Assembly: GCA_048498555.1 (NCBI GenBank)
Contig: JBEHXT010000002.1
Location: forward strand, 139,075 to 203,074
Length of the DNA: 64,000 nucleotides
Source of the DNA: Bacteroidota bacterium
Lineage (GTDB): Bacteria > Bacteroidota > Bacteroidia > Chitinophagales > Chitinophagaceae
Direction of reading: 5' to 3'
The position numbers were made by a program, and so were the translations under genes. The notes under the pieces are model-generated. The model did no database searches. It was given only the letters and a program-made list of their open reading frames with translations, and was not told the origin of the DNA. Positions 3,000 to 31,960 of this stretch are shown here, piece after piece (within the stretch, counting starts at the first letter, position 1; every line of letters starts with the position of its first letter).

Positions 3000-3326
3000 C
3001 TAAATGTTTTCATCTGAGTCATCAAGCCAATTGTAGTCGATTGTGGGAGTATCGCCTCCGGTGCCACCGCCGAGCGGTACCGGTGGAGCGAACCATTGAG
3101 AGAGATCAAGCGGTTCTTTAGCTATGATTATATATCCGACACCCTTTTCAAGTTTATCGAAGCTATTAACCGGCCTGCCTGGCACCCATGATCTATAACT
3201 GCCAAGTGTTCTGAAAACAGCAACGCAGTTTGATTCTGTAAGCCCCAAAGCACTCATGCTCACATTGTCCGCTGTATCTAACGCGACTACGCTGTTAGGC
3301 CCCGCTATGATATTAGTCGCCATCAC
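3000..3326 (-). CDS. Small hypothetical protein (108 aa), coupled to the beta-helix gene
   Basis: ORF track; stop lies 2 nt before the beta-helix ATG; ends in a Gly/Thr linker-like tail. Confidence 0.7.
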   Translation of the reverse strand: MMATNIIAGPNSVVALDTADNVSMSALGLTESNCVAVFRTLGSYRSWVPGRPVNSFDKLEKGVGYIIIAKEPLDLSQWFAPPVPLGGGTGGDTPTIDYNWLDDSDENI

Positions 3327-3342
3327 ATGAAGTTTGAATAGT

Positions 3343-3366
3343 AAACAAAAGCCCGGTTGCCCGGGC
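3343..3366 (-). terminator. Intrinsic terminator after the major tail gene
   Basis: Minus strand reads GCCCGG-GCAA-CCGGGC followed by TTTTGTTT. Confidence 0.75.
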
Positions 3367-3373
3367 CATTATC

Positions 3374-4180
3374 TTAGCTCAGGATAAAATCGCCGTTGAC
3401 GAAGTTTCCTGTATACTTCACGCCGGCACTGTTCGTAAATCTGAACGGCTGGCCGTTATAATCGGACGGAAAGTCAACGACTGCAACAAGGGTACCTCCT
3501 GACTTGATGTTCATATTCATCGGTGTGCCTGCAGGTGTGGCTACTTTATTGAACTCCATTTTAATGGTCGCATTAATTGCAGACAATGTGGTTGTAATAC
3601 CAAAGTCTGTTTTAGTTGCAGCTGATGCGAATGTTTGAGCAGTATCAAATGTCAATGGAGTATCAGTTGTGCCACCTGTGAATGACCAAGAAGGAACGCC
3701 TGCTTTTTCAGGAGCCAGGATGGTGATTGTTAAATCAAGCTGACCCAATCCATTCTTTTGGAATTTGAATTGGCTGGTCGTAACAACTTTACCTCTTGCT
3801 ATTTTGATAACACCACCAAGCCTGTGCTTAATTTCAACGCTCTGCTCAATTTGAGGTTGGCTTGCAGGAGCTTGCCATGTAGGAGGATCCGTCTGAGTTG
3901 CTCCAGGGATAACTGTGCCGCCCCATAATTTCTGCAGGATATATGCATCGATGTCATACACCGATAGCTTCAATGTCTTCTTACCCGGTACGGTAACGCT
4001 GTAATAAGGCTCATCAGAATCTTCAATATTGAAGTCTGTCGTAGTACCTTCAGGAACTTCAAGTACAGGAGAACCTTCTACAATACCGCCAAGAAGCGTG
4101 AGAGATGTCCCCATGCCGCCGTCTGGTGCGACATTGCCCATCTTAATATATTCTAAACCGTAAAAAGCTTTCTTTGCCAT
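3374..4180 (-). CDS. Major tail (tube) protein with a C-terminal extension domain
   Basis: Position after the tail-completion genes. N-terminal ~170 aa resembles Bacteroidota siphophage tail tube proteins; followed by ~95 aa of beta-rich extension. Confidence 0.7.
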   Translation of the reverse strand: MAKKAFYGLEYIKMGNVAPDGGMGTSLTLLGGIVEGSPVLEVPEGTTTDFNIEDSDEPYYSVTVPGKKTLKLSVYDIDAYILQKLWGGTVIPGATQTDPPTWQAPASQPQIEQSVEIKHRLGGVIKIARGKVVTTSQFKFQKNGLGQLDLTITILAPEKAGVPSWSFTGGTTDTPLTFDTAQTFASAATKTDFGITTTLSAINATIKMEFNKVATPAGTPMNMNIKSGGTLVAVVDFPSDYNGQPFRFTNSAGVKYTGNFVNGDFILS

Positions 4181-4181
4181 T

Positions 4182-4583
4182 TTAGTTGTAGTTAATGTGA
4201 AAGAATTCGATTCTTATGTTTACATAATGCTGATCACCTTCTGAGAATAACACTTGCTGATGAACTTCGTAGTTGTAATCTTCTCCCCATGCATTCAGAA
4301 GGTCAACGGCAATACGTGTAAGGTCTTTTAAACGTTCTATGTTGGGTTGTGAGTCTTGTATATTTTCAACCTTGATCTTAAGGTTAGGAACATGAATATT
4401 TACATTAGCAACAGCCTCTTGCAGTTGTTCATTATTTACCGGAAGACAGTTGATTACGACATCTTCAACATTGCTGTTTACCGGCCTGGCTTCTTTGTAA
4501 ACATCTCCGGTGATGATTGTTTTCAGTTCAGAGTTGTTTATCTTGTTCCAGATGATGTCAACTATGTCGAAAGTGGTTATCAT
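4182..4583 (-). CDS. Tail terminator/completion protein
   Basis: Size and synteny between the HK97 gp10-like gene and the tail tube gene. Confidence 0.6.
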   Translation of the reverse strand: MITTFDIVDIIWNKINNSELKTIITGDVYKEARPVNSNVEDVVINCLPVNNEQLQEAVANVNIHVPNLKIKVENIQDSQPNIERLKDLTRIAVDLLNAWGEDYNYEVHQQVLFSEGDQHYVNIRIEFFHINYN

Positions 4584-5044
4584 GATCGCGCTAAACTTTT
4601 CTTTATTGCATCAATTGCTTTTGCCAGGTCATTCTTTGCTGTGATGCTGCTTGCTGTGATTACATCTTTACCTCTACTTTCGACTGCGGCTGCGTAATTC
4701 ATACCCGCGACAACTATCAGAACATAACCACGAGGAAAATTTGAAGCGACTTCCAGTGCAACTCTTTCTCCAGTATTTACGCCTGAAGTGTCCGATCTAA
4801 CTCGCGCTGCCTTTTTGAAATTTTGAAAGAGCTGTTCACCGTCACGCAAAATCACATATCCTATCGAGTTTCTGAGGTTGCCTGTAACATCAGTATAGTT
4901 TCCGTTTTCACGAGCATTTTTCACGAATGTTTCGCCAATGCGCTTTAACCTGGTGAGGATTGCATTGTCTAATGCCTTCATTTTGTCTTCAATAAACTTT
5001 TGAATTTCAGCTCTTGTAAATCGTGGCTCCAATTTCATAACCAA
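4580..5044 (-). CDS. HK97 gp10-like tail completion protein
   Basis: Y-T-D-V-T-G-N-L-R-N-S-I-G-Y and AGMNYAAAVESRGKDV motifs typical of this family. Confidence 0.7.
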   Translation of the reverse strand: MVMKLEPRFTRAEIQKFIEDKMKALDNAILTRLKRIGETFVKNARENGNYTDVTGNLRNSIGYVILRDGEQLFQNFKKAARVRSDTSGVNTGERVALEVASNFPRGYVLIVVAGMNYAAAVESRGKDVITASSITAKNDLAKAIDAIKKSLARS

Positions 5045-5352
5045 GCCCTCGCATTTAATTGACCAATGTTGAAGCGTTTAAGTTTGGATTTGCAGATCTT
5101 ATCTGCGCCGCTAAAGACTTCAACATCACAACCAGCAGGAACATCCTGAGCCGGCAAGGGCATGTATAAAGTCCAGCTATATTCCAATCGCTTACCGTCT
5201 TCATCTGTCAGGAAACCACCACTACTGTTTGCTTCAACTCTTCCAGGATATTCAATGATGCTTGGTGTTCCTTCAACCCAATTCCCTTGCCCATTACGAT
5301 AGCTGTTGCCCGTGATAGTAAAAACTATTCTATGAGGATACTGCCTTACCAT
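5035..5352 (-). CDS. Head closure/head-tail joining protein
   Basis: Size and synteny. Confidence 0.55.
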   Translation of the reverse strand: MVRQYPHRIVFTITGNSYRNGQGNWVEGTPSIIEYPGRVEANSSGGFLTDEDGKRLEYSWTLYMPLPAQDVPAGCDVEVFSGADKICKSKLKRFNIGQLNARAWL

Positions 5353-5657
5353 ACCGACTTGCTCGTAATCTTTGGTTTTGGAAATAACTTATTGTCAAGA
5401 CCCAATTCAGCAGCTAAAGCGGAATACCAGGCTTTCACGCCTTCCATATTCCATTTAACAGAATATCCTCCTTCGGAAACCTCTTGCAGCCCGGCCATCA
5501 TTAAAGGAAGCTGATTGTACATCGCCACCTTTAATGATCTTGTCTCCGTTATCGGATCATCCGGAATGATTGATTGCTCCAACAGGAGGATATCTATTTC
5601 AGCGGCTGACACACCGAATTTTCCAAGGATAGTTGATATGTATTCCTTATTGGTCAC
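5346..5657 (-). CDS. Head-tail connector protein
   Basis: Directly after the capsid gene; SEGGYSVKWN motif seen in Bacteroidota prophage connectors. Confidence 0.6.
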   Translation of the reverse strand: MTNKEYISTILGKFGVSAAEIDILLLEQSIIPDDPITETRSLKVAMYNQLPLMMAGLQEVSEGGYSVKWNMEGVKAWYSALAAELGLDNKLFPKPKITSKSVW

Positions 5658-6748
5658 TATGCAGCTACATCTGTTGTTAACAAGAATATGCCGTCGATAG
5701 CTTCCAATGCAGGGAAAGCGTTCAATTCAACCTGTGTGAATTCCTGCCAAGGGTTGTTGTCTCTCCACTTAGAAAGCAGAGTACGATCATATTTCGCGTA
5801 GGTAACGCCCTGGATAGGCTCGATATCTTCAATTGCAATTGCATTGTGAACAATACCAAGCTTTCCGGTAGGAACAAAAACAACGTTCTCTTTTTTGAAA
5901 GGATTGATTGTTTGGATAATGCCATCCTGTTCGATGCCTCTGCGCTCATTGATCACCTTAATTGTTGGCAACTGATTAGCTGCGAGGTATTCATTGATAA
6001 CGGTGAGGGTTACAACAAAATTCTTGTTGCTGCCAGGATTCTGATAACCGGAGATCGCAGACTTAACAGAAGCCAAATTCTTCATTGCCAACCAGGTCTC
6101 CATATCAATCCATATTTCAGAAAACGAACGACCGGTTTTAGCAGCATAAAGCACGACATCATTGATATCCTTGAAAGGATCAGCAGTTGAATCTGACCAA
6201 ACTTTTGATACATTTCTTGTCTGATCAGACGAAGCCAATAGGTCTACTGATCCAAGAGCCGATCCGTCAGGGTTGTTCAAAACGTCAATGTTGATTTTAA
6301 ATGTTGATACAGCCTGCAAGAACATGATATCCAGTCTGCGGTCTGTTGATGAAGCCGCATTTGTCACATCTTTCCAAAGCTTTTCAATAAGCTGTTGCTT
6401 CTTTTGACTGTCTGCGATAGGAAGATTTTCTAAACCCTTAAGCGCTCTGTAGTCCTTTTGATTAAGAGCAAAAGACTGCTTCATTGTTGGGATTTTGCCT
6501 TCCAACATTTCCAGCTTGCTTCTGCTTCTGCGTGGTGCCGGTGAATCCGGATCCACTATAGAAGCGGCTGCTTCGATACGGGAACGGCCAATCGCGGTTG
6601 CGAATGTCAATTCCATTTGAGGTAGACCCCAGTCGAGATACTGCCTCCAAATTGACGTTGTATAAAGAGTATCAAGAGAGCTGTCTATCAAGGCCTGCAG
6701 ATTCTGCTGCTTTGCCAGGTCTCCAAATACTGATGGTACTATTGCCAT
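5657..6748 (-). CDS. Major capsid protein (lambda gpE-like)
   Basis: 363 aa; synteny after the scaffold and decoration genes; resembles major capsid E-type proteins. Confidence 0.8.
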   Translation of the reverse strand: MAIVPSVFGDLAKQQNLQALIDSSLDTLYTTSIWRQYLDWGLPQMELTFATAIGRSRIEAAASIVDPDSPAPRRSRSKLEMLEGKIPTMKQSFALNQKDYRALKGLENLPIADSQKKQQLIEKLWKDVTNAASSTDRRLDIMFLQAVSTFKINIDVLNNPDGSALGSVDLLASSDQTRNVSKVWSDSTADPFKDINDVVLYAAKTGRSFSEIWIDMETWLAMKNLASVKSAISGYQNPGSNKNFVVTLTVINEYLAANQLPTIKVINERRGIEQDGIIQTINPFKKENVVFVPTGKLGIVHNAIAIEDIEPIQGVTYAKYDRTLLSKWRDNNPWQEFTQVELNAFPALEAIDGIFLLTTDVAA

Positions 6749-6798
6749 TGGAAAAATTGTTGAGAGTTAAAAAATTGGTTTTTCTCAGGTATCGGGTT

Positions 6799-7386
6799 TT
6801 ACATCGATTGAGAATAGATTATGCCTGGCAAAGCGGCTGCAATGTCTGCTGAGTATGGAACTCTGCGAGCGTACACAGTAGCACGAATTGCAACTGAAAC
6901 ACTTTCGCCAGAGTCAACAACAGCATCAGCGTATAACAACCCTTTGATAGCAGGCAGGGCCGCAGATGTTGCACCTGTTGCAGTTGAAGCAAACAAAAGA
7001 TCGCCAGCTGTAGCAGCTCCGATTGTTGTGCCTACTGTCAGCAAATCATAATCTGCATTTGTGTTATCAATTGCAGTGATTGCATATGCAGCACCACCTT
7101 TGCTTTTCGCCAGATTGTCTGCAACTTTAATGATGCTGCCTTTTTTGACTTTATATTGAGTCGCTGAACCGCCAGCATTTTCATAAACTACCGCTGTAGC
7201 CATTGGTTTTGCTTTGCGGGTTGACTCGTCAAATGTCATTGGAATGCCTGCTTTGAGTACAGTGCCGAGCACTAAGCTCGTTACATCAAGCAGGAAGCCG
7301 CCTTGGGCAAGCTGTATATCCTTGCCGTAGCCCTGGAACACAGGAATGTCACTGGTTCCATATTTTCTTTTGAAGCCTACGCCCAT
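6799..7386 (-). CDS. Head decoration protein
   Basis: Between scaffold and capsid; Ala/Gly/Thr-rich, 195 aa. Confidence 0.6.
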   Translation of the reverse strand: MGVGFKRKYGTSDIPVFQGYGKDIQLAQGGFLLDVTSLVLGTVLKAGIPMTFDESTRKAKPMATAVVYENAGGSATQYKVKKGSIIKVADNLAKSKGGAAYAITAIDNTNADYDLLTVGTTIGAATAGDLLFASTATGATSAALPAIKGLLYADAVVDSGESVSVAIRATVYARRVPYSADIAAALPGIIYSQSM

Positions 7387-7390
7387 TTTG

Positions 7391-8011
7391 TTAAGATTTT
7401 GCTTTTACTGATTCGTTTTGTTTTTTACCAAATGCAACGATATCAGGATCGACTGTTGTTGCACTGGCTCCGCTCTTACCACCTGCAGGAGGAGTGTTGT
7501 TCATGAGCCCACCGTCGATCATTTCCTGCCTGAATGCGCTGTAGTCATCCTGAACCTCTTGAACAAATGCAGCGAGATCCTCTTCCTTTTCAGGTAAGGC
7601 TCTTTTTGCATAGTAAGAAGCTGGAATTCCTTTAAGTTGCTCCGCAGCTTTTGTTTTCATACTGCTTTGAACTTTGTCAGCTTTTAACGTCTGCACCTCT
7701 TGCAAAAGAGTTTTGAGCAACGTTGCTGTATCATCCGGCTTTGGATCTGGTTTGGGATCATCAGTTTTACCTGGATCAGGCTTTGGAGGATTTTCCTTTT
7801 TAGCCTCGGTAACCCTGCGGTCGCCTTCGCTTTGATATTCTGCTGCTAAATCTGTGATAGACACTGGAAGGTTCTCTAGTTCGTCAACGACGCCCTGTAT
7901 CTGACTTTCCTCTGTTACTTTGGGTAGGAGTTTGTCGGCCCAAAATCCCAGAAATTTCTTTGACACCCCTGGATATTTGGTTATCAGTTGTGCCAGCAGT
8001 TTTTGTTTCAT
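7391..8011 (-). CDS. Capsid scaffolding protein
   Basis: Helical, with a PKPDP linker and a low-complexity C-terminus; first gene of the head operon. Confidence 0.65.
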   Translation of the reverse strand: MKQKLLAQLITKYPGVSKKFLGFWADKLLPKVTEESQIQGVVDELENLPVSITDLAAEYQSEGDRRVTEAKKENPPKPDPGKTDDPKPDPKPDDTATLLKTLLQEVQTLKADKVQSSMKTKAAEQLKGIPASYYAKRALPEKEEDLAAFVQEVQDDYSAFRQEMIDGGLMNNTPPAGGKSGASATTVDPDIVAFGKKQNESVKAKS

Positions 8012-8078
8012 GTGTAAGAACTTTCTTTTTTGAATTGTGATTCAAAAATGTTCAAAGTATCGGGGACGTTAAAATATG

Positions 8079-8109
8079 ATATAGCAACACAGCGGTTTTG
8101 TTGCTATAT
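8079..8109. promoter_or_regulatory. Inverted repeat between the divergent head operon and DUF262 cassette (putative operator)
   Basis: ATATAGCAACA-N9-TGTTGCTATAT, perfect 11-bp arms. Confidence 0.5.
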
Positions 8110-8215
8110 TTTTCTACTTTAGCGTACCTCGCTTGCTCGAATACCACGCCAATGTTCGTAAGCTGGCTGGGTTTTACCCACCCGGGCAAATCGTTTTAAT
8201 TAAATATAAGAGGCA

Positions 8216-9325
8216 ATGAATATTAAAATAGACCTTGAATCACTGCAGACTAAGGCTAAGGAAAGAACTGTAAAAACACAAACTATTGAATATGATCTTG
8301 AAACGTTAGTCAAAAAGGTTCAAAAAAATGTAATTAAGCTCGATCCTGATTATCAAAGAAGACATCGGTGGGATAATGAAACATCTTCTAGACTGATTGA
8401 AAGTTTAATACTAAACATTCCAATTCCGATAGTTTATCTTTCGTACGACATCGACGTGGATACAAATGAAGAGGGGGCTCGCTTTTCGGTAATCGATGGA
8501 CAGCAGCGCCTCACAGCAATCGTCAACTTCTTTGAAGACAAGTTTGCCTTGGAGGAGCTGGATATATTGACAGATCTGGATGGCTTTAAATATTCGGATT
8601 TGCCGCCATTCTTACTAAGGCGACTTGAGGAAAGGACAATCAAATGTTTGCGCATAGATTCTACGGTCGATCCTCAAGTTAAATTCGACATTTTCGAACG
8701 ACTTAACTCCGGTTCAGTAAAGCTTGAATCACATGAATTACGAAATGCAGTACTTAGAGGCCCGTTCAATGACATGTGTAAAAAATTATCAGGCGATGTT
8801 GATTTTCGAAAACTTGTTCAAATAGGCAGTGAAGAACCTTCTAAAAATGCGAAAGTTCAAAAGATGGAAGATGTCGAACTTGTTTTGAGATTCTTTGCAT
8901 TGATTGAGGATCGTTATAAAACATATAAAAAGACCAAAGAAAACCAATTCAAGGATTTTCTATCAGATTACTTGGTTGACGCGAATAAGCTTAGCGCTGA
9001 TCAAATCGAAAAAAAGGCTAGGCTTTTTCGAGAAACAATGAAATTTATTATCACCCACTTCGGTGAAGCAGCTTTTGCGAAATATAAATATGTTAACAAG
9101 CAAATGAAGAAACAATCAAGCTTCAACGCTGCCGTCTACGACGCTTTAACCGTAGCTATAGCATCTGATGTAAATCTTAGAAATCCCAAAAACATCAAGA
9201 AGAAGGCTGCTGACTTTTTAAGTCTCTTTAAGAATCCAGACTTCCATGAAAAGCTCAGTGGGTCTATACTTGATACCACAAAATTGATAGGTCGGATTGA
9301 TTCAGCAAGAAAGGCATTTAAATGA
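8216..9325 (+). CDS. DUF262 (GmrSD-N/ParB-like) domain protein, putative anti-phage component
   Basis: PDYQRRHRW, IDGQQRLTAI and FERLNSG..L...ELRN motifs. No C-terminal HNH (DUF1524) motif seen. Confidence 0.9.
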   Translation: MNIKIDLESLQTKAKERTVKTQTIEYDLETLVKKVQKNVIKLDPDYQRRHRWDNETSSRLIESLILNIPIPIVYLSYDIDVDTNEEGARFSVIDGQQRLTAIVNFFEDKFALEELDILTDLDGFKYSDLPPFLLRRLEERTIKCLRIDSTVDPQVKFDIFERLNSGSVKLESHELRNAVLRGPFNDMCKKLSGDVDFRKLVQIGSEEPSKNAKVQKMEDVELVLRFFALIEDRYKTYKKTKENQFKDFLSDYLVDANKLSADQIEKKARLFRETMKFIITHFGEAAFAKYKYVNKQMKKQSSFNAAVYDALTVAIASDVNLRNPKNIKKKAADFLSLFKNPDFHEKLSGSILDTTKLIGRIDSARKAFK

Positions 9326-10125
9326 TGAGTACGTTTGTTAACGATGGCATAAATGCCCTTCGCGCAAGATTTGATGAAGTCGATTTAATCTTATCCGAAG
9401 CCGCTTTGAGTTCAGATACACGCCCGTCTTTATATAAAGCACTTTGCCGTTCGGCACAAGTGATGCTCTTCGCTCATTTTGAAGGTTATTTAAAGGAGTT
9501 AGTTAGGAATTCGGTGGAAGACATTAATCAATTTTCAAGCTTCAATAAATCCAAAAAGTGTTTAAAACAAAGACTTTGTGAATATTTTGTACTACCGAAT
9601 GCAGATGGCAAACAACGTCAGGATAAGATAGTAGAGCTTATGTCAACGTTCAACAACTTAGATACAAAATTTAAAAAAGAATACTTTTTATCCGGGGAAA
9701 ACAAAAATCCAAAAGTATCAGTAATAAATCATATTGGTCAGCAATTCGGCATTAAGTCATTTTTTGATCAATTGAAAAAGACTAATCTGGATCTGGTGTT
9801 TTCTAATACCAAACGCCAAAATGATGAGCTTCGAGATGACCTTTTGAAATACCTACAGGAGTCGACCACGACTTACCCATATAGACTAAGTTTTAGCAGG
9901 CTGGCGCTTGACAATACCCGATCTACGGCGGATAATTTGTGGGAGGTGTTTATAAGTCAAGTACTCAAAAGAAGACACGATATTGCGCACGGGACGGAGG
10001 TGGAGAATTCTGCGGATCATTCGAGTATTCAATCCGATAAAACAAAGATTGAAATATTGCTATACGCGTTTACAATTTTTGTTTGCCTTCAATGTAATCC
10101 CGACGAACCTAAAGAAAATGCATAA
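9322..10125 (+). CDS. HEPN-domain RNase (MAE_28990/RiboL-PSP-like)
   Basis: N-terminal LFAHFEGYLK and C-terminal R-x4-H motif (RHDIAH); 4-nt overlap with the DUF262 gene. Confidence 0.8.
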   Translation: MMSTFVNDGINALRARFDEVDLILSEAALSSDTRPSLYKALCRSAQVMLFAHFEGYLKELVRNSVEDINQFSSFNKSKKCLKQRLCEYFVLPNADGKQRQDKIVELMSTFNNLDTKFKKEYFLSGENKNPKVSVINHIGQQFGIKSFFDQLKKTNLDLVFSNTKRQNDELRDDLLKYLQESTTTYPYRLSFSRLALDNTRSTADNLWEVFISQVLKRRHDIAHGTEVENSADHSSIQSDKTKIEILLYAFTIFVCLQCNPDEPKENA

Positions 10126-10522
10126 CAAAACAAATACGCCGATGAATTTGCAAGCAGTCAAAAATATTCAAGAAATCGAACTTGCAGGTTGCTTGGACAT
10201 TACCAACAGCAAAGGCAATTTCGGAACAATCGTTCATCGACTGGAATTACTACTTTCCTTGCGTTATACGAAACTCAAGAGTGCTGCAATTGTTAGTCAG
10301 ATCGAAGCAGAAGCTGAAGAATGCTTCCTGCCTTATCATGAATATGTTGTTAACGAACTTCAATACGAATACAGGTTTTCCAGTAAGTTGAAATTCAGCG
10401 AGAAGTATGAAAACCAAGTGCTTTCAAAGTGGATTAAGATGATTGTCTTGAGGTATAACGTAGCGATAGCAGATGAATTCCTGGGAGTTATTAAAATAAA
10501 CAGGGATAGTAGAAAGCGATAA
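10118..10522 (+). CDS. Hypothetical protein (134 aa), third gene of the cassette
   Basis: ATG at 10118 overlaps the HEPN stop codon (ATGCATAA); same frame as track ORF 9983..10522. Confidence 0.6.
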   Translation: MHNKTNTPMNLQAVKNIQEIELAGCLDITNSKGNFGTIVHRLELLLSLRYTKLKSAAIVSQIEAEAEECFLPYHEYVVNELQYEYRFSSKLKFSEKYENQVLSKWIKMIVLRYNVAIADEFLGVIKINRDSRKR

Positions 10523-10541
10523 ACTTTTATAATTTTACATC

Positions 10542-10715
10542 ATGGAATTTTCCGTAGAAGAAATAATGGCCAAAGTCAATGCAGGCATTGAACTGTCCAA
10601 AGAGGAAGAAATATTCTATTTGGTGAAAATCATGCGTGCCGCAAAAGATCGTGATGATGCGATCCGGATCATTGCTATAGCGGACAATCAAGACCCTAAT
10701 CTTATTATCGATTAG
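10542..10715 (+). CDS. Small hypothetical protein (57 aa), below the ORF-track cutoff
   Basis: Hand translation MEFSVEEIMAKVNAGIELSKEEEIFYLVKIMRAAKDRDDAIRIIAIADNQDPNLIID; AT-rich leader; convergent 11-nt overlap with the MuF gene. Confidence 0.6.
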   Translation: MEFSVEEIMAKVNAGIELSKEEEIFYLVKIMRAAKDRDDAIRIIAIADNQDPNLIID

Positions 10716-12501
10716 TCATCCATCCTAATTTCAACATCATTTCTGTAATGGAACTTTCAATGTTATTAAAGTCTTCTTTAAGCCATTGTGAACGAAAACC
10801 CAACGGTTCTTCATTTGAGATTATATTGTCAAGATACTTTGTAAGCTTTGCGTTATTAGCGTTATTAGCGATGTATTGAGCATAACTCCGCGCCCATATT
10901 TCCTTAGGGCTATTCAGATAACGCAAATGCTTTCTTAGCCTGTCATCCAAAGCGTAGTCTTTGTCATCAAAAGTCATGTATCCATTATCAAGAATGGATT
11001 GTATGTTTTTAATGGCATCAGATTGCTGAGCAGCCTCTATAACTTTCGCCATTGGCAGATCAGAAGACAAGCTCGCCCATGTTCTTTCGCCTCCAATAGC
11101 ATGCAGATCGAAATAATGTCCCATCTCGTGAATAATGCTCAATTCTGGATGTGAAGAATTGGAGAGCAGTATTTCAAGTGGCCTTCCACCAATTGACGCA
11201 AACGCGGCGGCAAATTCCTTGCTTTTGCTTGGCTTAAATGGGATATCGTTCAACATACCGTCACCATGTACGCTATCAATGGCAATAAGAGCGTTGTCTA
11301 CCTTGTCGGCTATCTTTTTGTCAATCCTTGTGAATTGGCTGCGAATGTTTTTGCCAGATGGTGTAGTCTGGCCGGTATTTGTGTTAAACTTTTCCTTTTC
11401 GTCTCCAGCAGCTTTAAAATAATCTGGATTGTCCTTTACCCAATACGGCTTACTTTTCCATTTGGCAATCCTGTCTTTGTTGGTAAGTACATATTCTTTA
11501 AATGCGGCGGGCGTGTCCTCAACTTCATTCCTGCTTTTGATAATGAGATTCTCGCCTCGCAACATTGCCTCTTCGATCTTGTCGTACTCTTCGTCAGACA
11601 TCATTTCCGGCACCTGGTAGCAGATGCATTGCGGATGCCACCCTGTCCAATGAAAGTCTTTTGGATATCTTCCGGCCAGCTTGTCACAGATATCATAAGT
11701 CGGATGTGCATTAGACAACTTAATGACGATACCAACGACGAATGGCATAGTTTGCCAACGTTCGTGATCTGCGTTTCGATATGCAGTATTTGTCTCAGTT
11801 CGTGCAATACGCATGGCATTCTTGTAGGAAGATCTGTATATACCTTGCCCAGGGTTATATTCTTCAGCGGCTTTAGAGAGCTTAAAAGATCCTGTATCGT
11901 CCTTTGTTTTCGTATCGCCGAGTATTCTGTTCACAATGGTACTGTCAGCTGTCCTAACACGCCTGTAAAGCTTGTCTGGGTCATTTAGGTACTGTTTCAT
12001 GTCCCGAGCCATCTCTGCTGCAGATTGACCTTTGCTTATACCAAGTCCTAAGGATTGCTCTATTTCGTGACGATAAGGATCGACGAGATTCCAGACACGT
12101 TTGCTTAAATCGATGCCTTTCTCTTTGCGATTGATAAATGCTTCCAATCCGTTCGCGTTGGGATCGTATAAGATTGCCTTAGTCTTTTTAGACAGCTTTT
12201 TGCCGGCCAGACGAACATCAAGAAGAGCATTGTTCTTTTCATTGGACAATCCCCAGGATGATTCAATTCCATTGACAACGGTTGAATAGATGCTTCCATG
12301 CATCTTTTTGATGGCGCGATCAATACGATTCTGCAGTGCTGGATAGTCCTTTAACTCAAAGGCACGCCCTGAGATATCTATCTTACTGGCTACAAGAGAT
12401 ATCTCCTGGATGGTATCATCATAGACGGAACGGATCCGTTTGGCAGCTTCAATAAGCTGACGTAAGTGCCTCTTCTCGTACTGATCGTTTATTTTTTGCA
12501 A
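10705..12501 (-). CDS. MuF/SPP1 gp7-like head morphogenesis protein with a C-terminal zincin metallopeptidase domain
   Basis: MuF motifs RIARTETN and C...WHPQCIC, after the portal gene; C-terminal HEMGH (11116-11130) and E-x-WARSYAQY. Confidence 0.85.
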   Translation of the reverse strand: MQKINDQYEKRHLRQLIEAAKRIRSVYDDTIQEISLVASKIDISGRAFELKDYPALQNRIDRAIKKMHGSIYSTVVNGIESSWGLSNEKNNALLDVRLAGKKLSKKTKAILYDPNANGLEAFINRKEKGIDLSKRVWNLVDPYRHEIEQSLGLGISKGQSAAEMARDMKQYLNDPDKLYRRVRTADSTIVNRILGDTKTKDDTGSFKLSKAAEEYNPGQGIYRSSYKNAMRIARTETNTAYRNADHERWQTMPFVVGIVIKLSNAHPTYDICDKLAGRYPKDFHWTGWHPQCICYQVPEMMSDEEYDKIEEAMLRGENLIIKSRNEVEDTPAAFKEYVLTNKDRIAKWKSKPYWVKDNPDYFKAAGDEKEKFNTNTGQTTPSGKNIRSQFTRIDKKIADKVDNALIAIDSVHGDGMLNDIPFKPSKSKEFAAAFASIGGRPLEILLSNSSHPELSIIHEMGHYFDLHAIGGERTWASLSSDLPMAKVIEAAQQSDAIKNIQSILDNGYMTFDDKDYALDDRLRKHLRYLNSPKEIWARSYAQYIANNANNAKLTKYLDNIISNEEPLGFRSQWLKEDFNNIESSITEMMLKLGWMTNR

Positions 12502-12574
12502 TTTTTACCAATTTTAAAGACTGGTGTATTCTTTGTTGACTTGCGCCCATCGGGGTACATGTTGATATAAAGCG

Positions 12575-12598
12575 GGGTTTGCTTTTTTAAGCAAACCC
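12575..12598. repeat. 10-bp hairpin between the portal and MuF genes
   Basis: GGGTTTGCTT-TTTT-AAGCAAACCC. Confidence 0.5.
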
Positions 12599-12616
12599 TA
12601 GTTATTTGTGCCAACT

Positions 12617-14008
12617 CTATTGCATCAAATCATTTAATCCTTCCTGAGCGTCTTTCTTCTCCTGGTCAATCTGCTTTTGTTCATCATCCGCATTCTGTAC
12701 AAGAGGGTTAAGTCCGACAGCTGTCTTTTGGCTTAAAATGGGCTTTCCTGTACCAACCGCAGAGGTTAACAGATCAATCATTTCTTTCTCATTTGACGGC
12801 AGGTAATATGTGAATTTTGGTTTAACAGAGAGCGTCAAGGCCGGCTCAAGCTTCAGGTTGATCTTTGCATTCGCAGCTTTAAGGAAGTTAATCCGACGCT
12901 GAATGCCTTTACCAAATATCTCCTCCTTATCTGCCGCTTTAAGGTGTGCGCCAATGAATAGCATCTTTAGAGCAATGCCGGAAAAAGTTCCGAGAGATTG
13001 CATTTTCTCGATTGATATGTCAGGAGTGTCGCTAAAGTCAAGAATAAGAGACCTCAGATTGGTCTGCTCCAGCTTGACACTTTCCGGAGACTGATCCCAA
13101 GTAAGATATGAAGCCTTTGCGCCATCTTTCCCTTGCAAAACTTTTCCTTGTTCCCCTTTGGAAGCAAAGCCGGTAACATCGCCATCAAGAAATACAATTG
13201 GGCTTCCAAAGTAGTCGTTTGTATCTCCATGATTGGATAAAGATGTTTCGTACCGCTCAATAAGCTGTTGCACGTCAGCCCATTCAACAGCATCCTGACT
13301 GTAATAGATAATTGGTATTTTGGTAATTATGTTGGATTCTGTTGCTGTCTCCCAGCCAGCATCAGTCTTATGCCCTTTAATGGTCTCTTTGTTCGTGTAC
13401 AGGTCGAAATGCTCTACTTTCTTATCGCCATCTGGCAAGAAGTAGCCACGCCCAAACGCGATCATGTCCCCAGCATTGTTGTAGACAGGATAGAGCTGAT
13501 CACCGAGCGAATTCGCAAGTATTTTCATTCTTAGCCTGAACTTACTTCCCTGGTTAGATGTTCCTTTCCAATATTGATCATCGACAGGCTCGGTGTACCA
13601 CAGCTCTGCAACTTCTGTTTCCTTCATCATTAACTTTAGAATGCCTTTGCTGTCGTAATCGAGTTTATTATCCTCCCATGTCTTCTTTAGGATGGCAACC
13701 AGCGACTTTTCTACATCAGCCGTGGGATCAGCTACTAACTGAATGGGGTTTCCACAGAGGAAAGCAGCAGCTAACTGCACTATCTTCTTTTGAAACGGGA
13801 CTGGTAAGCGGGCCACGTCAACAAATGAAACTCCATCATTTGTCTCAACCTTCTTTTTGGGCCGGAGCGTTTCATTCATTACTACATGCCCAGAGACTTC
13901 ATACTGCTTATGGATCTTATCAAAGTCGAAAGCTGGCTTTGTAGCAACGACTTTCTTTTTAAGTTCTTCGAAATTGGATATTAGGTTTTGTAATTCTTGT
14001 TGTTCCAT
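12617..14008 (-). CDS. Portal protein (SPP1-type)
   Basis: 463 aa after terminase; typical SPP1-portal features such as SGIALK..F and acidic C-terminal segments. Confidence 0.9.
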   Translation of the reverse strand: MEQQELQNLISNFEELKKKVVATKPAFDFDKIHKQYEVSGHVVMNETLRPKKKVETNDGVSFVDVARLPVPFQKKIVQLAAAFLCGNPIQLVADPTADVEKSLVAILKKTWEDNKLDYDSKGILKLMMKETEVAELWYTEPVDDQYWKGTSNQGSKFRLRMKILANSLGDQLYPVYNNAGDMIAFGRGYFLPDGDKKVEHFDLYTNKETIKGHKTDAGWETATESNIITKIPIIYYSQDAVEWADVQQLIERYETSLSNHGDTNDYFGSPIVFLDGDVTGFASKGEQGKVLQGKDGAKASYLTWDQSPESVKLEQTNLRSLILDFSDTPDISIEKMQSLGTFSGIALKMLFIGAHLKAADKEEIFGKGIQRRINFLKAANAKINLKLEPALTLSVKPKFTYYLPSNEKEMIDLLTSAVGTGKPILSQKTAVGLNPLVQNADDEQKQIDQEKKDAQEGLNDLMQ

Positions 14009-14022
14009 TTTGTATTGATTTA

Positions 14023-15237
14023 TCAGTGAAAGAACCCGCCGAGGTTCTTTTTCTTATAGTTTTTGCCGAGCAGTTCCATTAAGACTACATACCTGGCGCC
14101 GTCGATAATGTGGTTAAAATTGTCTATTGGCTCATTCAACCATTTGCCTGTCTTGTCTTGCTGGTATGTGTAGTTCTTAAACTCTTTGATAGCATTAACA
14201 GACCGGGATGTGACGTAGATCTTCATGGTCTTCATCTTGTCGATGCCAGCCTTTACGCTGCCCTGACCTTTCTCAACTGGATGGATATTAAAGCCTGCAT
14301 TGTATATCTCATCCACCAGGCGAGGATCCGCGCTTTCGCTCCAAATCTTCCGACTGTTGTTATGCTCCTTTAATACTTTGATGATATCACTTGACAGCAT
14401 CTTAGTCTGATAACAGAACTCATCGATATAAAGGCCATTGTCGTGAATAGCTACTTCGCTGCCGGCGGTTACATCATTTGAATAACCAAAGTCCAATCCG
14501 GTGAACCGCTTCGTTATCCAGTTGGGTATTTCCTCAATCAGTTCAATGCTTTCAAATACCAAACCTTCAATAGTGGCTCTCTTTCCTAACCCGTAAATTG
14601 TCCATTTGCGTTTATCAGCGGTACCAGCTGCATAGTTGGCTTCTGTTGGCTCATATGACAGTATCTGCTCCTTTGCATTCTTCGGTATGAGTTTATTATC
14701 AAGCATCGTACTATGCGAATAGAACGTCTTTGCCCTTTTGCACAGCTTATCATAGATCCAATGCTCTTCCTCAGATGGGTTATAGTCAATAAGCGCAAAG
14801 CCACTACAGCGTTGCATGAGCTGCGCGTAATCGTCGAAACTGGATTCTATCGCCTCATTGATCCAGAAAGCATCGGATTTCATACCATGGATTCTTTGCT
14901 CATCATCCAGCCCCATAAACCAGAACTCTGTATCGAAAAGCCGGTAAATGCCTGATCCCTCAGACTTGTTATGATTCTTCCGGTCGTAGAGCTTATAAGA
15001 TTTCAGGATATCGATGAAGTCTTTTAAAACTGTCGCCTTCAACCATGTACCTTTCAACCTCGAAACAATTACCCTTCGTTCCGCGCCTCGGTTATCATAT
15101 GCCCATTTGATCCAGAATTGAATAATGGAATGCGTTTTGCTGCTGCGACTACCGCCTTCCAGCACATACACATTATACTTTGCAGACTGATAAGCCTTCT
15201 GTAGCGTGTCAAATACTTTCGTCGTTAGTCCTAGCAT
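14023..15237 (-). CDS. Terminase large subunit (PBSX family)
   Basis: Walker A-like GGSRSSKT, Walker B-like WINEA, nuclease GLDFGY and NHIIDGARY motifs. Confidence 0.92.
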   Translation of the reverse strand: MLGLTTKVFDTLQKAYQSAKYNVYVLEGGSRSSKTHSIIQFWIKWAYDNRGAERRVIVSRLKGTWLKATVLKDFIDILKSYKLYDRKNHNKSEGSGIYRLFDTEFWFMGLDDEQRIHGMKSDAFWINEAIESSFDDYAQLMQRCSGFALIDYNPSEEEHWIYDKLCKRAKTFYSHSTMLDNKLIPKNAKEQILSYEPTEANYAAGTADKRKWTIYGLGKRATIEGLVFESIELIEEIPNWITKRFTGLDFGYSNDVTAGSEVAIHDNGLYIDEFCYQTKMLSSDIIKVLKEHNNSRKIWSESADPRLVDEIYNAGFNIHPVEKGQGSVKAGIDKMKTMKIYVTSRSVNAIKEFKNYTYQQDKTGKWLNEPIDNFNHIIDGARYVVLMELLGKNYKKKNLGGFFH

Positions 15238-16238: not shown

Positions 16239-16292
16239 CACATTTGTGGATAACATTTGCAAAAGTTTCATACTTTGCAAAAAAAAAGTCAA

Positions 16293-17051
16293 ATGTCAAT
16301 GCCAAACCCTAAGAGCCATATTATTTGCTTTCTCATATGCATTTTCGTTCCATATTATAACTTCAGTCAAGAGTTTGTAGACTTTGAGAGTTTGGCCAAG
16401 CCTAGAAACAAGCCAAATGCAGATTCGATTGGGTTTTATAAATTAGCTTATCAAATTGAATCAAATGTATTAGATCCAGGAGATACCTTGAAGGTTAATT
16501 TGTTTTTTACTGGATATGGTCAGATAAAGAATTCTAAGATTTACTTCCTTCCATCAAAACATATTTTTGATACTTCGTCAATAACCACACATTCACTCGG
16601 TGGATATCCAAATTATCCAAGATGGGGTGACTCTACAAACGCATTCAATGACTACTACACTTCTACTGGTCCATTTGACCTGACATTTAATGGAGGCATG
16701 ACAAAACGGGAATGGAAGGACACCACTCCATATGTCGATTACAACAACAATCCTCACTCGCTGGATATATTAACTGAACAAATCCTAGATAAACCTCCAA
16801 TAACGTACCTGCTCAAAACAAAAAGAAACATAAGGCCCGGGCAATACTTCATTAATATTTATTTTACTTATTTCAACGGATCCACATGGCAAGGAGATAA
16901 TGTTGTTATACCATACACAATCACCACTTGGATACAAAGAAATGAAGATTGGGCATGGTGGTTTGGTATCGGCGCAGCTGGATTTTCAATTATAGCGTCC
17001 ATGTACCAATTTTGGCGCTGGATTAAAAAAAAAGTAACTAAAACTCCGTGA
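16293..17051 (+). CDS. Accessory membrane protein (N-terminal signal/TM, C-terminal TM)
   Basis: Hydrophobic IICFLICIFV near the N-terminus and WAWWFGIGAAGFSIIASMY near the C-terminus; antisense to the phage operons. Start taken at ATG 16293. Confidence 0.7.
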   Translation: MSMPNPKSHIICFLICIFVPYYNFSQEFVDFESLAKPRNKPNADSIGFYKLAYQIESNVLDPGDTLKVNLFFTGYGQIKNSKIYFLPSKHIFDTSSITTHSLGGYPNYPRWGDSTNAFNDYYTSTGPFDLTFNGGMTKREWKDTTPYVDYNNNPHSLDILTEQILDKPPITYLLKTKRNIRPGQYFINIYFTYFNGSTWQGDNVVIPYTITTWIQRNEDWAWWFGIGAAGFSIIASMYQFWRWIKKKVTKTP

Positions 17052-17691
17052 TTGGCTTAATTTGTTTACATCCTTCTGCTAAACGCTTATCGTAATTTGG
17101 ATCATCGTTTGAGAAACAATCTCTGTATCCAGTAGCTAAGACTAATGTACACCGACTGCCGATGAAATAACCCTGCAAAAACATGATATTAGCTTTAATC
17201 TGCAAACTGAAGGCAATTCTATTTTGGCTGTCAAGAGCTTCAAAATATGTAATATTATCTCCATGTGTCATTTTAATTTCAGGTGACTTTCTAACAAGCT
17301 TATTCTCATGTATCTCTAGAATAATGTGATGTGTTTTATTAACGATCAAGGTTGAAACCAAAAGTCGAGCATCTTCAAATTTAAACGTAAAAATTAGTGG
17401 AAAATCATATTTACTGCATGAGGTATCTCGGAGGTAATATGTCCAACCTATATTGTCTTTTAGAATCAAAATCGCAGTGTCCTTGCTACCAAGTTTAGCG
17501 CCCATAACCTTATTATTCTTGAACAAATCTGATGAAACATTAAATAGCAAATCTGACTTAGTCGCGAGATATTCTTTTTTGTTCCGAGAAAGAAAGAGGA
17601 ATGGGGCGCCGAAAAATAAGATCAAAATTGTTAGTGCAATTAGTTTACGATAGGAAACATTCTTTTTGGGCAAGGACTTAGGCTTTGTCAT
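17038..17691 (-). CDS. Accessory membrane-anchored protein
   Basis: Basic N-terminus, then the TM segment LIALTILILFFGAPFLFL; AT-rich. Confidence 0.7.
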   Translation of the reverse strand: MTKPKSLPKKNVSYRKLIALTILILFFGAPFLFLSRNKKEYLATKSDLLFNVSSDLFKNNKVMGAKLGSKDTAILILKDNIGWTYYLRDTSCSKYDFPLIFTFKFEDARLLVSTLIVNKTHHIILEIHENKLVRKSPEIKMTHGDNITYFEALDSQNRIAFSLQIKANIMFLQGYFIGSRCTLVLATGYRDCFSNDDPNYDKRLAEGCKQIKPITEF

Positions 17692-18161: not shown

Positions 18162-18329
18162 ATGCTTAATATGACAAAGAGTACTAAACCCGGTTCTTCC
18201 GGCAAGTCACCAAAAGGCTATTGGAAATATGTTTACAAATCGGCTAAAACAGGAGAGTTTGTAACGGAAGCCTATGCCAAGGCACATCCGGCAACTACGG
18301 TTCGAGAAAAGATTTGGGTACCAGGCTAG
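18162..18329 (+). CDS. Small basic protein (52-55 aa), antisense to the operon
   Basis: Hand translation ...YKSAKTGEFVTEAYAKAHPATTVREK...; the SAxTGxFVTxxYAxxHPxTTV pattern resembles a family of small proteins I recall. Confidence 0.55.
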   Translation: MLNMTKSTKPGSSGKSPKGYWKYVYKSAKTGEFVTEAYAKAHPATTVREKIWVPG

Positions 18330-25258: not shown

Positions 25259-25259
25259 G

Positions 25260-29847: not shown

Positions 29848-30138
29848 TTATTTGTAATTTTTAAAAAGCGTGGTTTGCTGAGGGATCGGGGTTGATATTG
29901 GCTTCGATCTAACTGACTTAATTTGTCTTGCTGATTCTTGCACCTTTATTGGCTCTTCTTTACTTTCTTGGATTGTTGTTTCTTGCTTATCTAGAGCCAC
30001 TAAATCCCTCTTCACTGAAAACCTATTCCCATCCTGGGCCTCAATAATCAATACCTCACCGTGCTCTGCTATTAGTTTTACTTCTTGTCCTGCAGGAGCT
30101 GAGCCCCATGCCTTTACTATGGATTCTTTTAAGTACAC
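29848..30138 (-). CDS. Hypothetical phage protein (SH3-like N-terminus)
   Basis: ORF track; operon packing. Confidence 0.5.
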   Translation of the reverse strand: MYLKESIVKAWGSAPAGQEVKLIAEHGEVLIIEAQDGNRFSVKRDLVALDKQETTIQESKEEPIKVQESARQIKSVRSKPISTPIPQQTTLFKNYK

Positions 30139-30596: not shown

Positions 30597-30597
30597 A

Positions 30598-31898: not shown

Positions 31899-31960
31899 GT
31901 TATCGTATTAAAAGAATGATTAAATCGTTTGATTAATTTGTTACACGTTAGAGGTTTCGA

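What the first reader, a model, noticed from the sequence alone, without database searches (positions are those of the whole stretch)
8216..10715. Four-gene antisense DUF262 + HEPN cassette inserted inside the head module
Seen: between the MuF and scaffold genes, on the opposite strand, lie DUF262 (no HNH partner), a HEPN protein with an intact RHDIAH motif, a 134-aa ORF whose ATG overlaps the HEPN stop, and a 57-aa ORF. Established: DUF262/ParB-like NTPase domains and R-x4-H HEPN RNases are typical anti-phage parts, and prophages carry such cassettes. From memory, a DUF262+HEPN pair resembles the reported PD-T4-2 architecture; this needs checking. Inference: a prophage-borne abortive-infection system. 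The two coupled small ORFs may be additional subunits, an antitoxin, or protection for the carrier phage.
Basis: partly seen in the sequence, partly recalled or inferred. Interest (0 to 1): 0.62.

Follow-up and report, generated by a model that had tools for sequence, protein, structure and literature searches.

The report
Two-gene DUF262–HEPN defence pair in prophage
A prophage carries a two-gene DUF262 plus HEPN-RNase module of a known anti-phage type, dropped into a variable backward-facing slot of its head-gene operon; the two small genes after it belong to the phage, not to the module.

Summary
The four + strand ORFs are real and lie between the scaffold and MuF genes of a tmRNA-integrated prophage. 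They are three separate evolutionary units, not one four-gene cassette.

(1) DUF262 (8216-9325) plus RiboL-PSP HEPN (9322-10125) is a self-contained pair. Eight loci elsewhere hold the same overlapping pair, each with different neighbours, and none has an ORF3 or ORF4 relative. Its two Pfam families are those reported for PD-T4-2, a validated E. coli defence system. The HEPN partner is about 100 aa longer and does not match PADLOC's PD-T4-2_B model. The DUF262 protein scores higher on Menshen NsnA than on PD-T4-2_A.

(2) ORF3 (most likely 10142-10522, 126 aa) is a phage-lineage gene. Nine related phages have it without the pair; one has a short-NACHT gene upstream instead.

(3) ORF4 (10542-10715) occurs only next to MuF proteins that carry the zincin-like C-terminal domain, so it is tied to MuF and may be its immunity partner.

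The closest related prophage is 82-86% identical in DNA on both sides and lacks the pair. The MuF-scaffold gap ranges from 89 bp to 4 kb in relatives, so it is an accessory-gene hotspot.

Verdict: a divergent member of a known kind of system. Its mechanism is inferred, and interest is modest.

The parts
8216..9325 (+). DUF262 / ParB-like NTPase with a C-terminal NsnA-type (ParBDB-like) region and no DUF1524/HNH nuclease. Proposed sensor subunit.
   Evidence: Pfam GmrSD_N 1.4e-27, aa 29-180. PADLOC NsnA 9e-77 over aa 14-368 and PD-T4-2_A 8.5e-47 over aa 31-368. phrog_2598 5e-79. Motifs QRRHRW aa 47-52, DGQQR aa 94-98, FERLN aa 160-164. Single copy in its own genome.
9322..10125 (+). RiboL-PSP / MAE_28990-type HEPN protein (267 aa). 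Proposed RNase effector. Its start overlaps the DUF262 stop by 4 bp.
   Evidence: Pfam PF18735 8.2e-15 and PF18737 1.9e-08. RHDIAH at aa 218-223 (nt 9973-9990), with R218, H219, H223 and G224 invariant in 19 homologues; a second invariant block HFEG at aa 52-55. No PADLOC hit, including PD-T4-2_B. Always preceded by a 367-371 aa DUF262 gene in eight other loci.
8112..8215 (+). Upstream region of the pair. This is the left end of the segment that differs from the closest related prophage. The promoter was not identified.
   Evidence: blastn similarity to L100 stops at window 8111. There is no Bacteroidota-type TAnnTTTG motif, and sigma-70-like matches are no more frequent than in shuffled sequence.
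10142..10522 (+). ORF3, 126 aa (134 aa if read from the ATG at 10118). A phage-lineage helical protein of unknown function that is not a subunit of the pair. It lies inside the segment swapped relative to L100.
   Evidence: Homologues lie antisense between MuF and scaffold in L001, L005, L009, L011, L014, L027, L095, L100 and L104, none of which has DUF262 or HEPN. It is absent next to eight DUF262-HEPN pairs. The AF2 model is a helical bundle with pLDDT 87.6 and no PDB or BFVD fold match. The L100 allele is 60% identical.
10542..10715 (+). ORF4, 57 aa, three helices, converging on MuF with an 11-bp overlap. It is linked to the zincin-like C-terminal domain of MuF and is a candidate cognate or immunity protein. 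It is not a subunit of the pair.
   Evidence: The ORF4 family occurs in L001, L005, L006, L009, L095, L100 and L104, always beside a MuF that carries the HEMGH C-terminal domain, and never beside the 74 other MuF loci. It is 95% identical in L100, which lacks the pair. AF2 pLDDT 88.4 with no fold match.
10705..12501 (-). MuF-like minor head protein with a C-terminal HEMGH (zincin-like) extension. It forms the right border of the antisense slot.
   Evidence: PHROG head-morphogenesis families. The C-terminal domain is shared with L001, L004, L005, L006, L009, L095, L100 and L104.
7391..8011 (-). Head scaffold gene. It forms the left border of the antisense slot.
   Evidence: phrog_5824 4.6e-27 and phrog_172 (scaffold) 5.6e-05. 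It is syntenic with the scaffold genes of 31 related phages.
8077..8109 (.). Inverted repeat (predicted 12-pair stem, 9-nt loop) followed by a T-run. It lies immediately left of the point where the variable segment begins.
   Evidence: RNAfold gives -12.7 kcal/mol on the + strand and -11.7 on the - strand. The same hairpin is present in L100. Its function is not tested.

Best explanation
Window 8216-10125 encodes an autonomous two-gene module: a ParB-like DUF262 NTPase and a RiboL-PSP-type HEPN RNase. It has the same architecture as the validated E. coli defence system PD-T4-2.

The module sits in a variable, antisense accessory slot between the MuF and scaffold genes of a temperate Bacteroidota-type phage integrated at the tmRNA gene. 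ORF3 and ORF4 are resident genes of that slot. ORF3 is a lineage-specific helical protein of unknown function. ORF4 travels with the zincin-like C-terminal domain of MuF.

Inferred mechanism (not shown):
- In the lysogen the pair is transcribed against the silent late operon.
- The DUF262 protein acts as sensor. Its DGQQR nucleotide site and its C-terminal DNA-binding region recognise a feature of incoming phage DNA.
- It then licenses the HEPN dimer to cut RNA through R218/H223. This arrests the infected cell or the infecting phage.
- When the carrier prophage is induced, late transcription running head-on through the cassette would reduce its expression.
For: Domains and motifs.

The pair is a conserved unit:
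- Eight other loci hold a DUF262 gene (367-371 aa) directly followed, with overlap, by a HEPN gene (255-269 aa), down to 38% HEPN identity.
- These loci come from Bacteroidota genomes and metagenomic contigs, plus one Syntrophobacteraceae MAG.
- The flanking genes differ in every case, for example RecA/rhodanese, AMP-binding and PemK clusters.

Same Pfam families as PD-T4-2 subunits A and B: and PMC10952713 Table 1. An operon of RiboL-PSP-HEPN with ParB was already noted in PMC3710099.

Temperate phages of E. coli (P2-like P24B2), Klebsiella and Vibrio carry analogous pairs.

Insertion into a hotspot:
- The closest prophage, L100, is 86% and 82% identical in DNA on the two sides. In place of window 8112-10517 (2406 bp) it has 768 bp without the pair.
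- None of the 80 related IMG/VR phage loci has DUF262 or HEPN.
- The MuF-scaffold gap ranges from 89 bp to 4 kb, mostly with antisense ORFs. The cargo includes PcfJ, an ADP-ribosylglycohydrolase, a glutamine-deamidase toxin domain, an antirepressor and a short-NACHT C-terminal domain.

ORF3 and ORF4 are independent of the pair.

The sensor role of DUF262 is by analogy with GmrSD, SspE and NsnA, as reviewed in PMC12065111.
Against: - There are no functional data. Protection, RNase activity and the trigger are all inferred.
- PADLOC's PD-T4-2_B model does not match the HEPN protein even at E<=10.
- The DUF262 protein scores higher on Menshen NsnA than on PD-T4-2_A, so family assignment below the architecture level is uncertain.
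- The segment that differs from L100 includes ORF3, whose allele is only 60% identical. The ORF3 allele may therefore have arrived together with the pair.
- Low GC extends over ORF3 and ORF4 as well, so base composition does not separate the units.
Confidence: 0.72

Rival explanations
1. One reading: all four genes form one system, with ORF3 and/or ORF4 acting as extra subunits, an antitoxin, or self-protection for the carrier phage.
For: All four genes are co-directional and closely spaced, with 16-19 nt gaps. ORF3 lies inside the segment that differs from L100. An in-frame ATG overlaps the HEPN stop.
Against: Eight DUF262-HEPN loci have no ORF3 or ORF4 relative at E<=10. Nine phages with ORF3 and seven with ORF4 lack the pair. 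ORF4 is 95% identical in L100, which has no pair. ORF3 homologues start at the second ATG.
Confidence: 0.07
2. The pair is mainly an addiction or toxin-antitoxin-like module that stabilises the prophage or the locus, rather than an anti-phage defence. HEPN would be the toxin and DUF262 its neutraliser.
For: HEPN RNases are common toxins of TA systems (PMC3710099; the DARNA preprint introduction). The pair occurs as an isolated two-gene unit among housekeeping genes. One locus lies among PemK and HEPN-NTase TA genes.
Against: The only tested system with this architecture, PD-T4-2, protects against T4 both in its native strain and in K-12 (PMC9519451). A 369-aa NTPase with intact catalytic motifs is atypical for an antitoxin.
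Confidence: 0.12
3. The pair is a reduced Menshen-like system: an NsnA sensor whose NsnB ATPase and NsnC nuclease have been replaced by a HEPN effector.
For: The best PADLOC match of the DUF262 protein is NsnA, at 9e-77 over nearly the whole model. The same holds for all related pairs tested. NsnA is proposed to be the sensor, and Menshen effectors are highly polymorphic (PMC12065111).
Against: No NsnB-like ATPase and no NsnC hit is present. Li et al. treat PD-T4-2 as a DUF262 system separate from Menshen. This rival concerns classification more than mechanism.
Confidence: 0.15
4. The pair serves the phage's own lytic cycle, for example host RNA shut-off or competition with co-infecting phages during replication, rather than protecting the lysogen.
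For: It lies inside the late structural operon region.
Against: It is on the strand opposite to the late genes. The same pair occurs on chromosomes far from phage genes. The HEPN protein has no match in 50,697 deposited phage genomes.
Confidence: 0.04

Closest known systems
PD-T4-2 (E. coli ECOR65; Vassallo et al. 2022, PMC9519451)
   Same: A two-gene, co-directional module. Subunit A is DUF262 (PF03235) without DUF1524. Subunit B is a HEPN of the RiboL-PSP/MAE_28990 type (PF18735/PF18737). The PADLOC PD-T4-2_A model matches the window protein over its full length at 8.5e-47.
   Different: The HEPN partner here has 267 aa. PD-T4-2 B has about 150-168 aa, judged from a PADLOC model of 168 positions and a total ORF span of 1540 bp. 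The PD-T4-2_B model gives no match. The A subunit scores higher on NsnA. The host phylum differs, and the module lies inside a prophage head operon. The mechanism of PD-T4-2 itself is unpublished in the library searched.
Menshen (NsnABC; Millman 2022; Li et al. 2025, PMC12065111)
   Same: The DUF262 protein has the NsnA layout, ParB-DUF262 plus a C-terminal region, and is the best PADLOC match at 9e-77. It probably has a sensor role.
   Different: There is no NsnB ATPase and no NsnC inPIN-nuclease. A HEPN RNase takes their place.
GmrSD / BrxU / SspE type IV restriction enzymes
   Same: The DUF262 NTPase domain with the DGxQR motif, which senses modified DNA in those enzymes.
   Different: They are single polypeptides with a DUF1524/His-Me DNA nuclease. 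Here there is no DUF1524, and the predicted effector is a separate RNase. PADLOC scores for SspE and HEC-05/06 are only 1e-4 to 1e-6, over the N-terminal motif region.
Defence-gene hotspots of P2-like phages, and moron loci of temperate phages
   Same: A fixed slot between conserved phage genes holds alternative cargo in different relatives. DUF262+HEPN pairs occupy such slots in the P2-like phages P24B2 and ST16-OXA48phi5.4.
   Different: Here the slot lies inside the head-morphogenesis operon, on the antisense strand, in a different phage lineage with an SPP1-like portal and MuF.
MuF polymorphic toxin plus small downstream immunity ORF (Jamet et al. 2017, PMC5576092). Relevant to ORF4 only.
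   Same: MuF carries a variable C-terminal domain. [quoted passage not shown] ORF4 co-varies with the C-terminal domain.
   Different: ORF4 converges on and overlaps the 3' end of MuF instead of following it on the same strand. Neither toxicity nor neutralisation has been tested.

Membership tests
PD-T4-2 | Subunit A: a DUF262 (PF03235) protein without the DUF1524 nuclease | tested here: met
   Pfam 1.4e-27. PADLOC PD-T4-2_A 8.5e-47, aa 31-368 on model positions 43-361 of 363. No DUF1524 hit.
PD-T4-2 | Subunit B: a HEPN of the RiboL-PSP/MAE_28990 type (Pfam level) | tested here: met
   PF18735 8.2e-15 and PF18737 1.9e-08. These are the two top HHpred families of PD-T4-2B in Vassallo's supplement.
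PD-T4-2 | Subunit B matches the family's own profile (PADLOC PDLC04028, PD-T4-2_B) | tested here: not met
   No hit at E<=0.1 in hmmscan. No hit at E<=10 in a six-frame search of the whole genome. The B partners of the related pairs in L002, L092, L096, L097 and L098 are not hit either.
PD-T4-2 | Adjacent, co-directional two-gene operon | tested here: met
   4-bp overlap at 9322-9325. The same arrangement holds in eight other loci.
PD-T4-2 | Protects cells against phage infection | not testable with these tools
   Shown only for the ECOR65 system.
Menshen (NsnABC) | NsnA: ParB-DUF262 plus the ParBDB C-terminal domain | tested here: met
   PADLOC NsnA 9e-77, aa 14-368 on model positions 39-379 of 385.
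Menshen (NsnABC) | NsnB ATPase encoded immediately downstream | tested here: not met
   The downstream gene is a HEPN protein with no PADLOC hit and no ATPase domain.
Menshen (NsnABC) | NsnC effector (inPIN plus nuclease) as the third gene | tested here: not met
   ORF3 has no family hit in Pfam, PADLOC, PHROGs or NCBIfam and no fold match.
GmrSD / BrxU / SspE | DUF1524 (His-Me/HNH) nuclease domain fused to DUF262 | tested here: not met
   The protein has 369 aa. Only GmrSD_N was found, and the C-terminus is covered by the NsnA model.
HEPN RNase superfamily | Conserved R-x4-6-H catalytic motif | tested here: met
   RHDIAH at aa 218-223. R218 and H223 are invariant in 19 sequences that go down to 30% identity.
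MuF toxin-immunity pair (ORF4 only) | A small ORF next to the 3' end of muf that co-varies with the MuF C-terminal domain | tested here: met
   ORF4 is present in all 7 distinct related phages that can be evaluated and that have the zincin-like C-terminal domain. It is absent from the 74 MuF loci that lack this domain. These phages are related to one another, so the cases are not fully independent.
MuF toxin-immunity pair (ORF4 only) | The immunity gene follows the toxin on the same strand, and the protein neutralises the toxin | tested here: not met
   ORF4 is convergent and overlaps MuF by 11 bp. Neutralisation cannot be tested with these tools.

The most novel reading that the evidence does not exclude
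The antisense slot between MuF and scaffold, headed by ORF3, may be a dedicated defence-cargo landing site of this Bacteroidota phage lineage. Unrelated immune genes have been captured directly upstream of ORF3: DUF262-HEPN here and a short-NACHT NTPase in L001. Their expression would be switched off automatically by head-on late transcription when the carrier phage goes lytic. ORF3 would then be a shared regulator or safety factor for whatever cargo sits in front of it.
Probability: 0.15. Interest if true: 0.6.

Novelty: new member of a known kind. Interest (0 to 1): 0.3.

Why it matters
The result splits an apparent four-gene system into a known two-gene architecture plus resident phage genes, so nobody needs to chase a false new system.

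It also shows that current defence finders would miss this pair, because the PD-T4-2_B model does not match the HEPN partner. The same holds for related pairs in Bacteroidota loci, a Syntrophobacteraceae MAG, and P2-like, Klebsiella and Vibrio phages. The DUF262 + RiboL-PSP-HEPN class is therefore broader than its PADLOC model suggests. A profile built from the roughly 265-aa HEPN subfamily would recover it; that subfamily has 339 representatives in 1.84 billion proteins.

Two side results may be useful. The MuF-scaffold gap is an accessory-gene hotspot in this phage lineage. A 57-aa convergent ORF tracks the metallopeptidase-like C-terminal domain of MuF.

Tried and rejected
- Megablast of 5000-14000 against deposited phages found no match.
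- A pattern search of IMG/VR for close HEPN relatives found none. tblastn of the HEPN protein against 50,697 phage records found none.
- The genome-contig scan with the 19-sequence HEPN alignment failed because no stretch was conserved enough. The 10-sequence alignment returned only 3 loci.
- ORF3 and ORF4 have no hit in Pfam, PADLOC, PHROGs or NCBIfam. The ORF3 profile has no PDB sequence hit. Confident AF2 models gave no Foldseek match at E<=0.001 in PDB (ORF3 and ORF4) or in BFVD (ORF3 only). Their functions remain unknown.
- Neither the DUF262 protein nor the HEPN profile has a solved relative by sequence.
- The sigma-70 promoter and terminator scan gave no more matches than shuffled sequence, and no Bacteroidota -7 motif lies upstream of 8216. 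The promoter is unassigned.
- GC content does not mark the insert's borders, because low GC also covers ORF3 and ORF4.
- The 176-aa gene after the pair in L002 was considered as a possible ORF3 analogue. It shows no similarity and is not conserved in other loci.
Full report
**Observation**

The + strand between the scaffold gene (7391-8011, -) and the MuF gene (10705-12501, -) holds four ORFs:
- 8216-9325, 369 aa
- 9322-10125, 267 aa
- an ORF ending at 10522
- 10542-10715, 57 aa

The first ORF is a DUF262/GmrSD_N protein (Pfam 1.4e-27). Its three DUF262 motifs are intact: QRRHRW at aa 47-52, DGQQR at aa 94-98 and FERLN at aa 160-164. It has no DUF1524/HNH domain.

The second ORF is a HEPN protein of the RiboL-PSP/MAE_28990 type (8.2e-15 and 1.9e-08). 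Its RHDIAH motif lies at aa 218-223. R218, H219, H223 and G224 are invariant across 19 homologues that go down to 30% identity.

The surrounding genes are portal, terminase, major capsid, an HTH repressor and a large serine recombinase that abuts a tmRNA gene. This is therefore a prophage in a 6.45-Mb genome.

The ATG that overlaps the HEPN stop (10118) is probably not the start of ORF3. All seven homologues aligned, and the gene call on record, begin at the position of the next ATG, 10142.

**Is it one cassette? The DUF262-HEPN pair**

The HEPN protein has 68 relatives in the 5.8-billion-protein collection. A profile search found 339 cluster representatives among 1.84 billion proteins.

In every locus with enough flanking DNA, a 367-371 aa DUF262 gene directly precedes the HEPN gene with overlapping stop and start. 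These loci are L002, L003/L088, L086, L087, L089, L090, L091 and L092. They come from Bacteroidota genomes and metagenomic contigs, plus one Syntrophobacteraceae MAG.

The genes on either side differ in every case. Examples are RecA and a rhodanese, an AMP-binding enzyme, and PemK toxin clusters. hmmsearch with ORF3 and ORF4 profiles found nothing in these loci even at E<=10. The pair is thus a self-contained, mobile two-gene unit.

It is also rare. Only 1 of 401 sampled genomes of the phylum, the window's own genome, has it.

**Is it one cassette? ORF3 and ORF4**

Phages related through MuF were fetched from IMG/VR (80 loci). Further loci came from the protein collection and from a genome of the same bacterial family.

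- None of the related phage loci has DUF262 or HEPN.
- ORF3 relatives lie antisense next to the scaffold gene in nine distinct phages: L001, L005, L009, L011, L014, L027, L095, L100 and L104.
- ORF4 relatives occur in seven: L001, L005, L006, L009, L095, L100 and L104.
- In L005, L095 and L104 the whole gap holds only ORF3 and ORF4.
- In L001, ORF3 is preceded by the C-terminal part of a short-NACHT NTPase (SNaCT5, 1.3e-22) instead of the HEPN gene.

The closest relative is prophage L100. It is 86% identical in DNA over window 3000-8111 and 82% identical over 10518-14052. In place of window 8112-10517 (2406 bp) it has 768 bp, which hold an ORF3 allele (60% aa identity) and a tandem ORF4 paralogue.

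Across relatives the MuF-scaffold gap ranges from 89 bp to about 4 kb, mostly filled with antisense ORFs. The cargo includes a PcfJ-like protein, an ADP-ribosylglycohydrolase, a glutamine-deamidase toxin domain and an antirepressor. The site is an accessory-gene (moron) hotspot, and the DUF262-HEPN pair is one of its cargos.

**ORF4**

I tested the link with ORF4.

- The ORF4 family occurs in exactly those loci whose MuF has that C-terminal domain: 7 of 7 distinct phages that can be evaluated, plus the window.
- It occurs in none of the 74 MuF loci that lack this domain.
- ORF3, by contrast, also occurs with other MuF C-termini (L011, L014, L027).

MuF proteins with variable C-terminal toxin domains, usually followed by small immunity ORFs, are established (PMC5576092). 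ORF4 is therefore best read as a partner of MuF, possibly an immunity protein in an unusual convergent orientation. It is not part of the defence pair. This is a co-occurrence inference among related phages, not a functional result.

**ORF3**

ORF3 gives a confident AF2 model (pLDDT 87.6, pTM 0.84) of a helical bundle. It has no significant fold match in PDB or BFVD and no profile hit anywhere. Its function remains unknown.

ORF3 lies within the segment that differs from L100. I therefore cannot exclude that this particular allele arrived together with the pair.

**Comparison with known systems**

Vassallo et al. list PD-T4-2 as 'DUF262, HEPN'.

Anantharaman et al. (2013) had already noted RiboL-PSP-HEPN 'in operon with ParB'.

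Membership below the architecture level is not clean:
- The PADLOC PD-T4-2_B model (168 positions) gives no match to the 267-aa HEPN protein.
- The DUF262 protein scores higher on Menshen NsnA (9e-77) than on PD-T4-2_A (8.5e-47).
- No NsnB or NsnC is present, so this is not Menshen.
- There is no DUF1524, so this is not GmrSD, BrxU or SspE.

The same pattern (NsnA > PD-T4-2_A for the first gene; PF18735 and/or PF18737 but no PD-T4-2_B hit for the second) holds for pairs in the P2-like coliphage P24B2, the Klebsiella phage ST16-OXA48phi5.4 and a Vibrio phage. The class is therefore wider than the current model, and prophage carriage is common for it. No mechanistic paper on PD-T4-2 is in the library searched.

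**Mechanism (inferred)**

By analogy with GmrSD, SspE and the proposed role of NsnA, the DUF262 protein would sense a DNA feature of an invading phage through its NTPase site and its C-terminal DNA-binding region. It would then activate the HEPN dimer to cleave RNA, leading to growth arrest or abortive infection.

Placement on the strand opposite the late operon suggests two things. The pair would be expressed in the lysogen, and it would be dampened by head-on late transcription after induction.

**Verdict**

The genes are real and the domain calls are correct. The four-gene system is not supported. What remains is a divergent member of the known DUF262 + RiboL-PSP-HEPN (PD-T4-2-type) two-gene class, sitting in a head-module moron hotspot. 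Interest is modest.

Noticed in passing
window 10542-10715 (+) and 10705-12501 (-); L001, L005, L006, L009, L095, L100, L104: The 57-aa ORF4 converges on and overlaps the 3' end of MuF by 11 bp. It occurs only where MuF carries the HEMGH zincin-like C-terminal domain. This makes it a candidate immunity or cognate partner in an unusual convergent orientation.
   Followed up: partly
L100 5815-5991 and 6001-6174: The closest related prophage has two tandem ORF4-family genes, of 58 and 57 aa (hmmsearch 9e-14 and 1.5e-26).
   Followed up: partly
L001 1-624: In a related phage fragment, the slot directly upstream of ORF3 holds the C-terminal part of a short-NACHT protein (Pfam SNaCT5, 1.3e-22). This is a different putative immune gene at the same position.
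   Followed up: partly
window 8077-8109: An inverted repeat (12-pair stem, 9-nt loop, about -12.7 kcal/mol) followed by a T-run lies just upstream of the scaffold start. It is conserved in L100, and nucleotide similarity to L100 ends 2 bp after it.
   Followed up: partly
window 18295-19287 (-): A 330-aa prophage protein matches the PADLOC candidate-system components PDC-M30B and PDC-M41B at about 5e-64. No partner gene was examined.
   Followed up: no
window 23285-25309 (-) and 27299-28348 (-): The prophage encodes a C5 cytosine methyltransferase domain protein and an N6/N4 methyltransferase. This could matter if the DUF262 sensor reads DNA modification.
   Followed up: no
window 16257-17051 (+) and 17038-17691 (-): A second low-GC patch (0.33-0.38) holds an ORF antisense to the packaging genes. 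Neither of the two ORFs has a Pfam or PADLOC hit.
   Followed up: partly
L096 (Peduovirus P24B2 30104-31979), L098 (Klebsiella phage ST16-OXA48phi5.4 28611-30514), L097 (Vibrio phage PQ189364 4364-6636): Deposited temperate phages carry NsnA-like DUF262 plus PF18735/PF18737 HEPN pairs that are mostly annotated as hypothetical. None of the HEPN partners matches PADLOC PD-T4-2_B.
   Followed up: partly
window 39593-41143 (+) and 41096-41470 (-): The large serine recombinase ORF runs into the 3' end of the tmRNA gene. This is the likely attachment site of the prophage.
   Followed up: no
L011 5410-6969: A related MuF ends in a different C-terminal domain, which I judged ART-like by eye, and is followed by a same-strand 73-aa ORF. 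This fits the usual MuF toxin-immunity layout and contrasts with the convergent ORF4.
   Followed up: no
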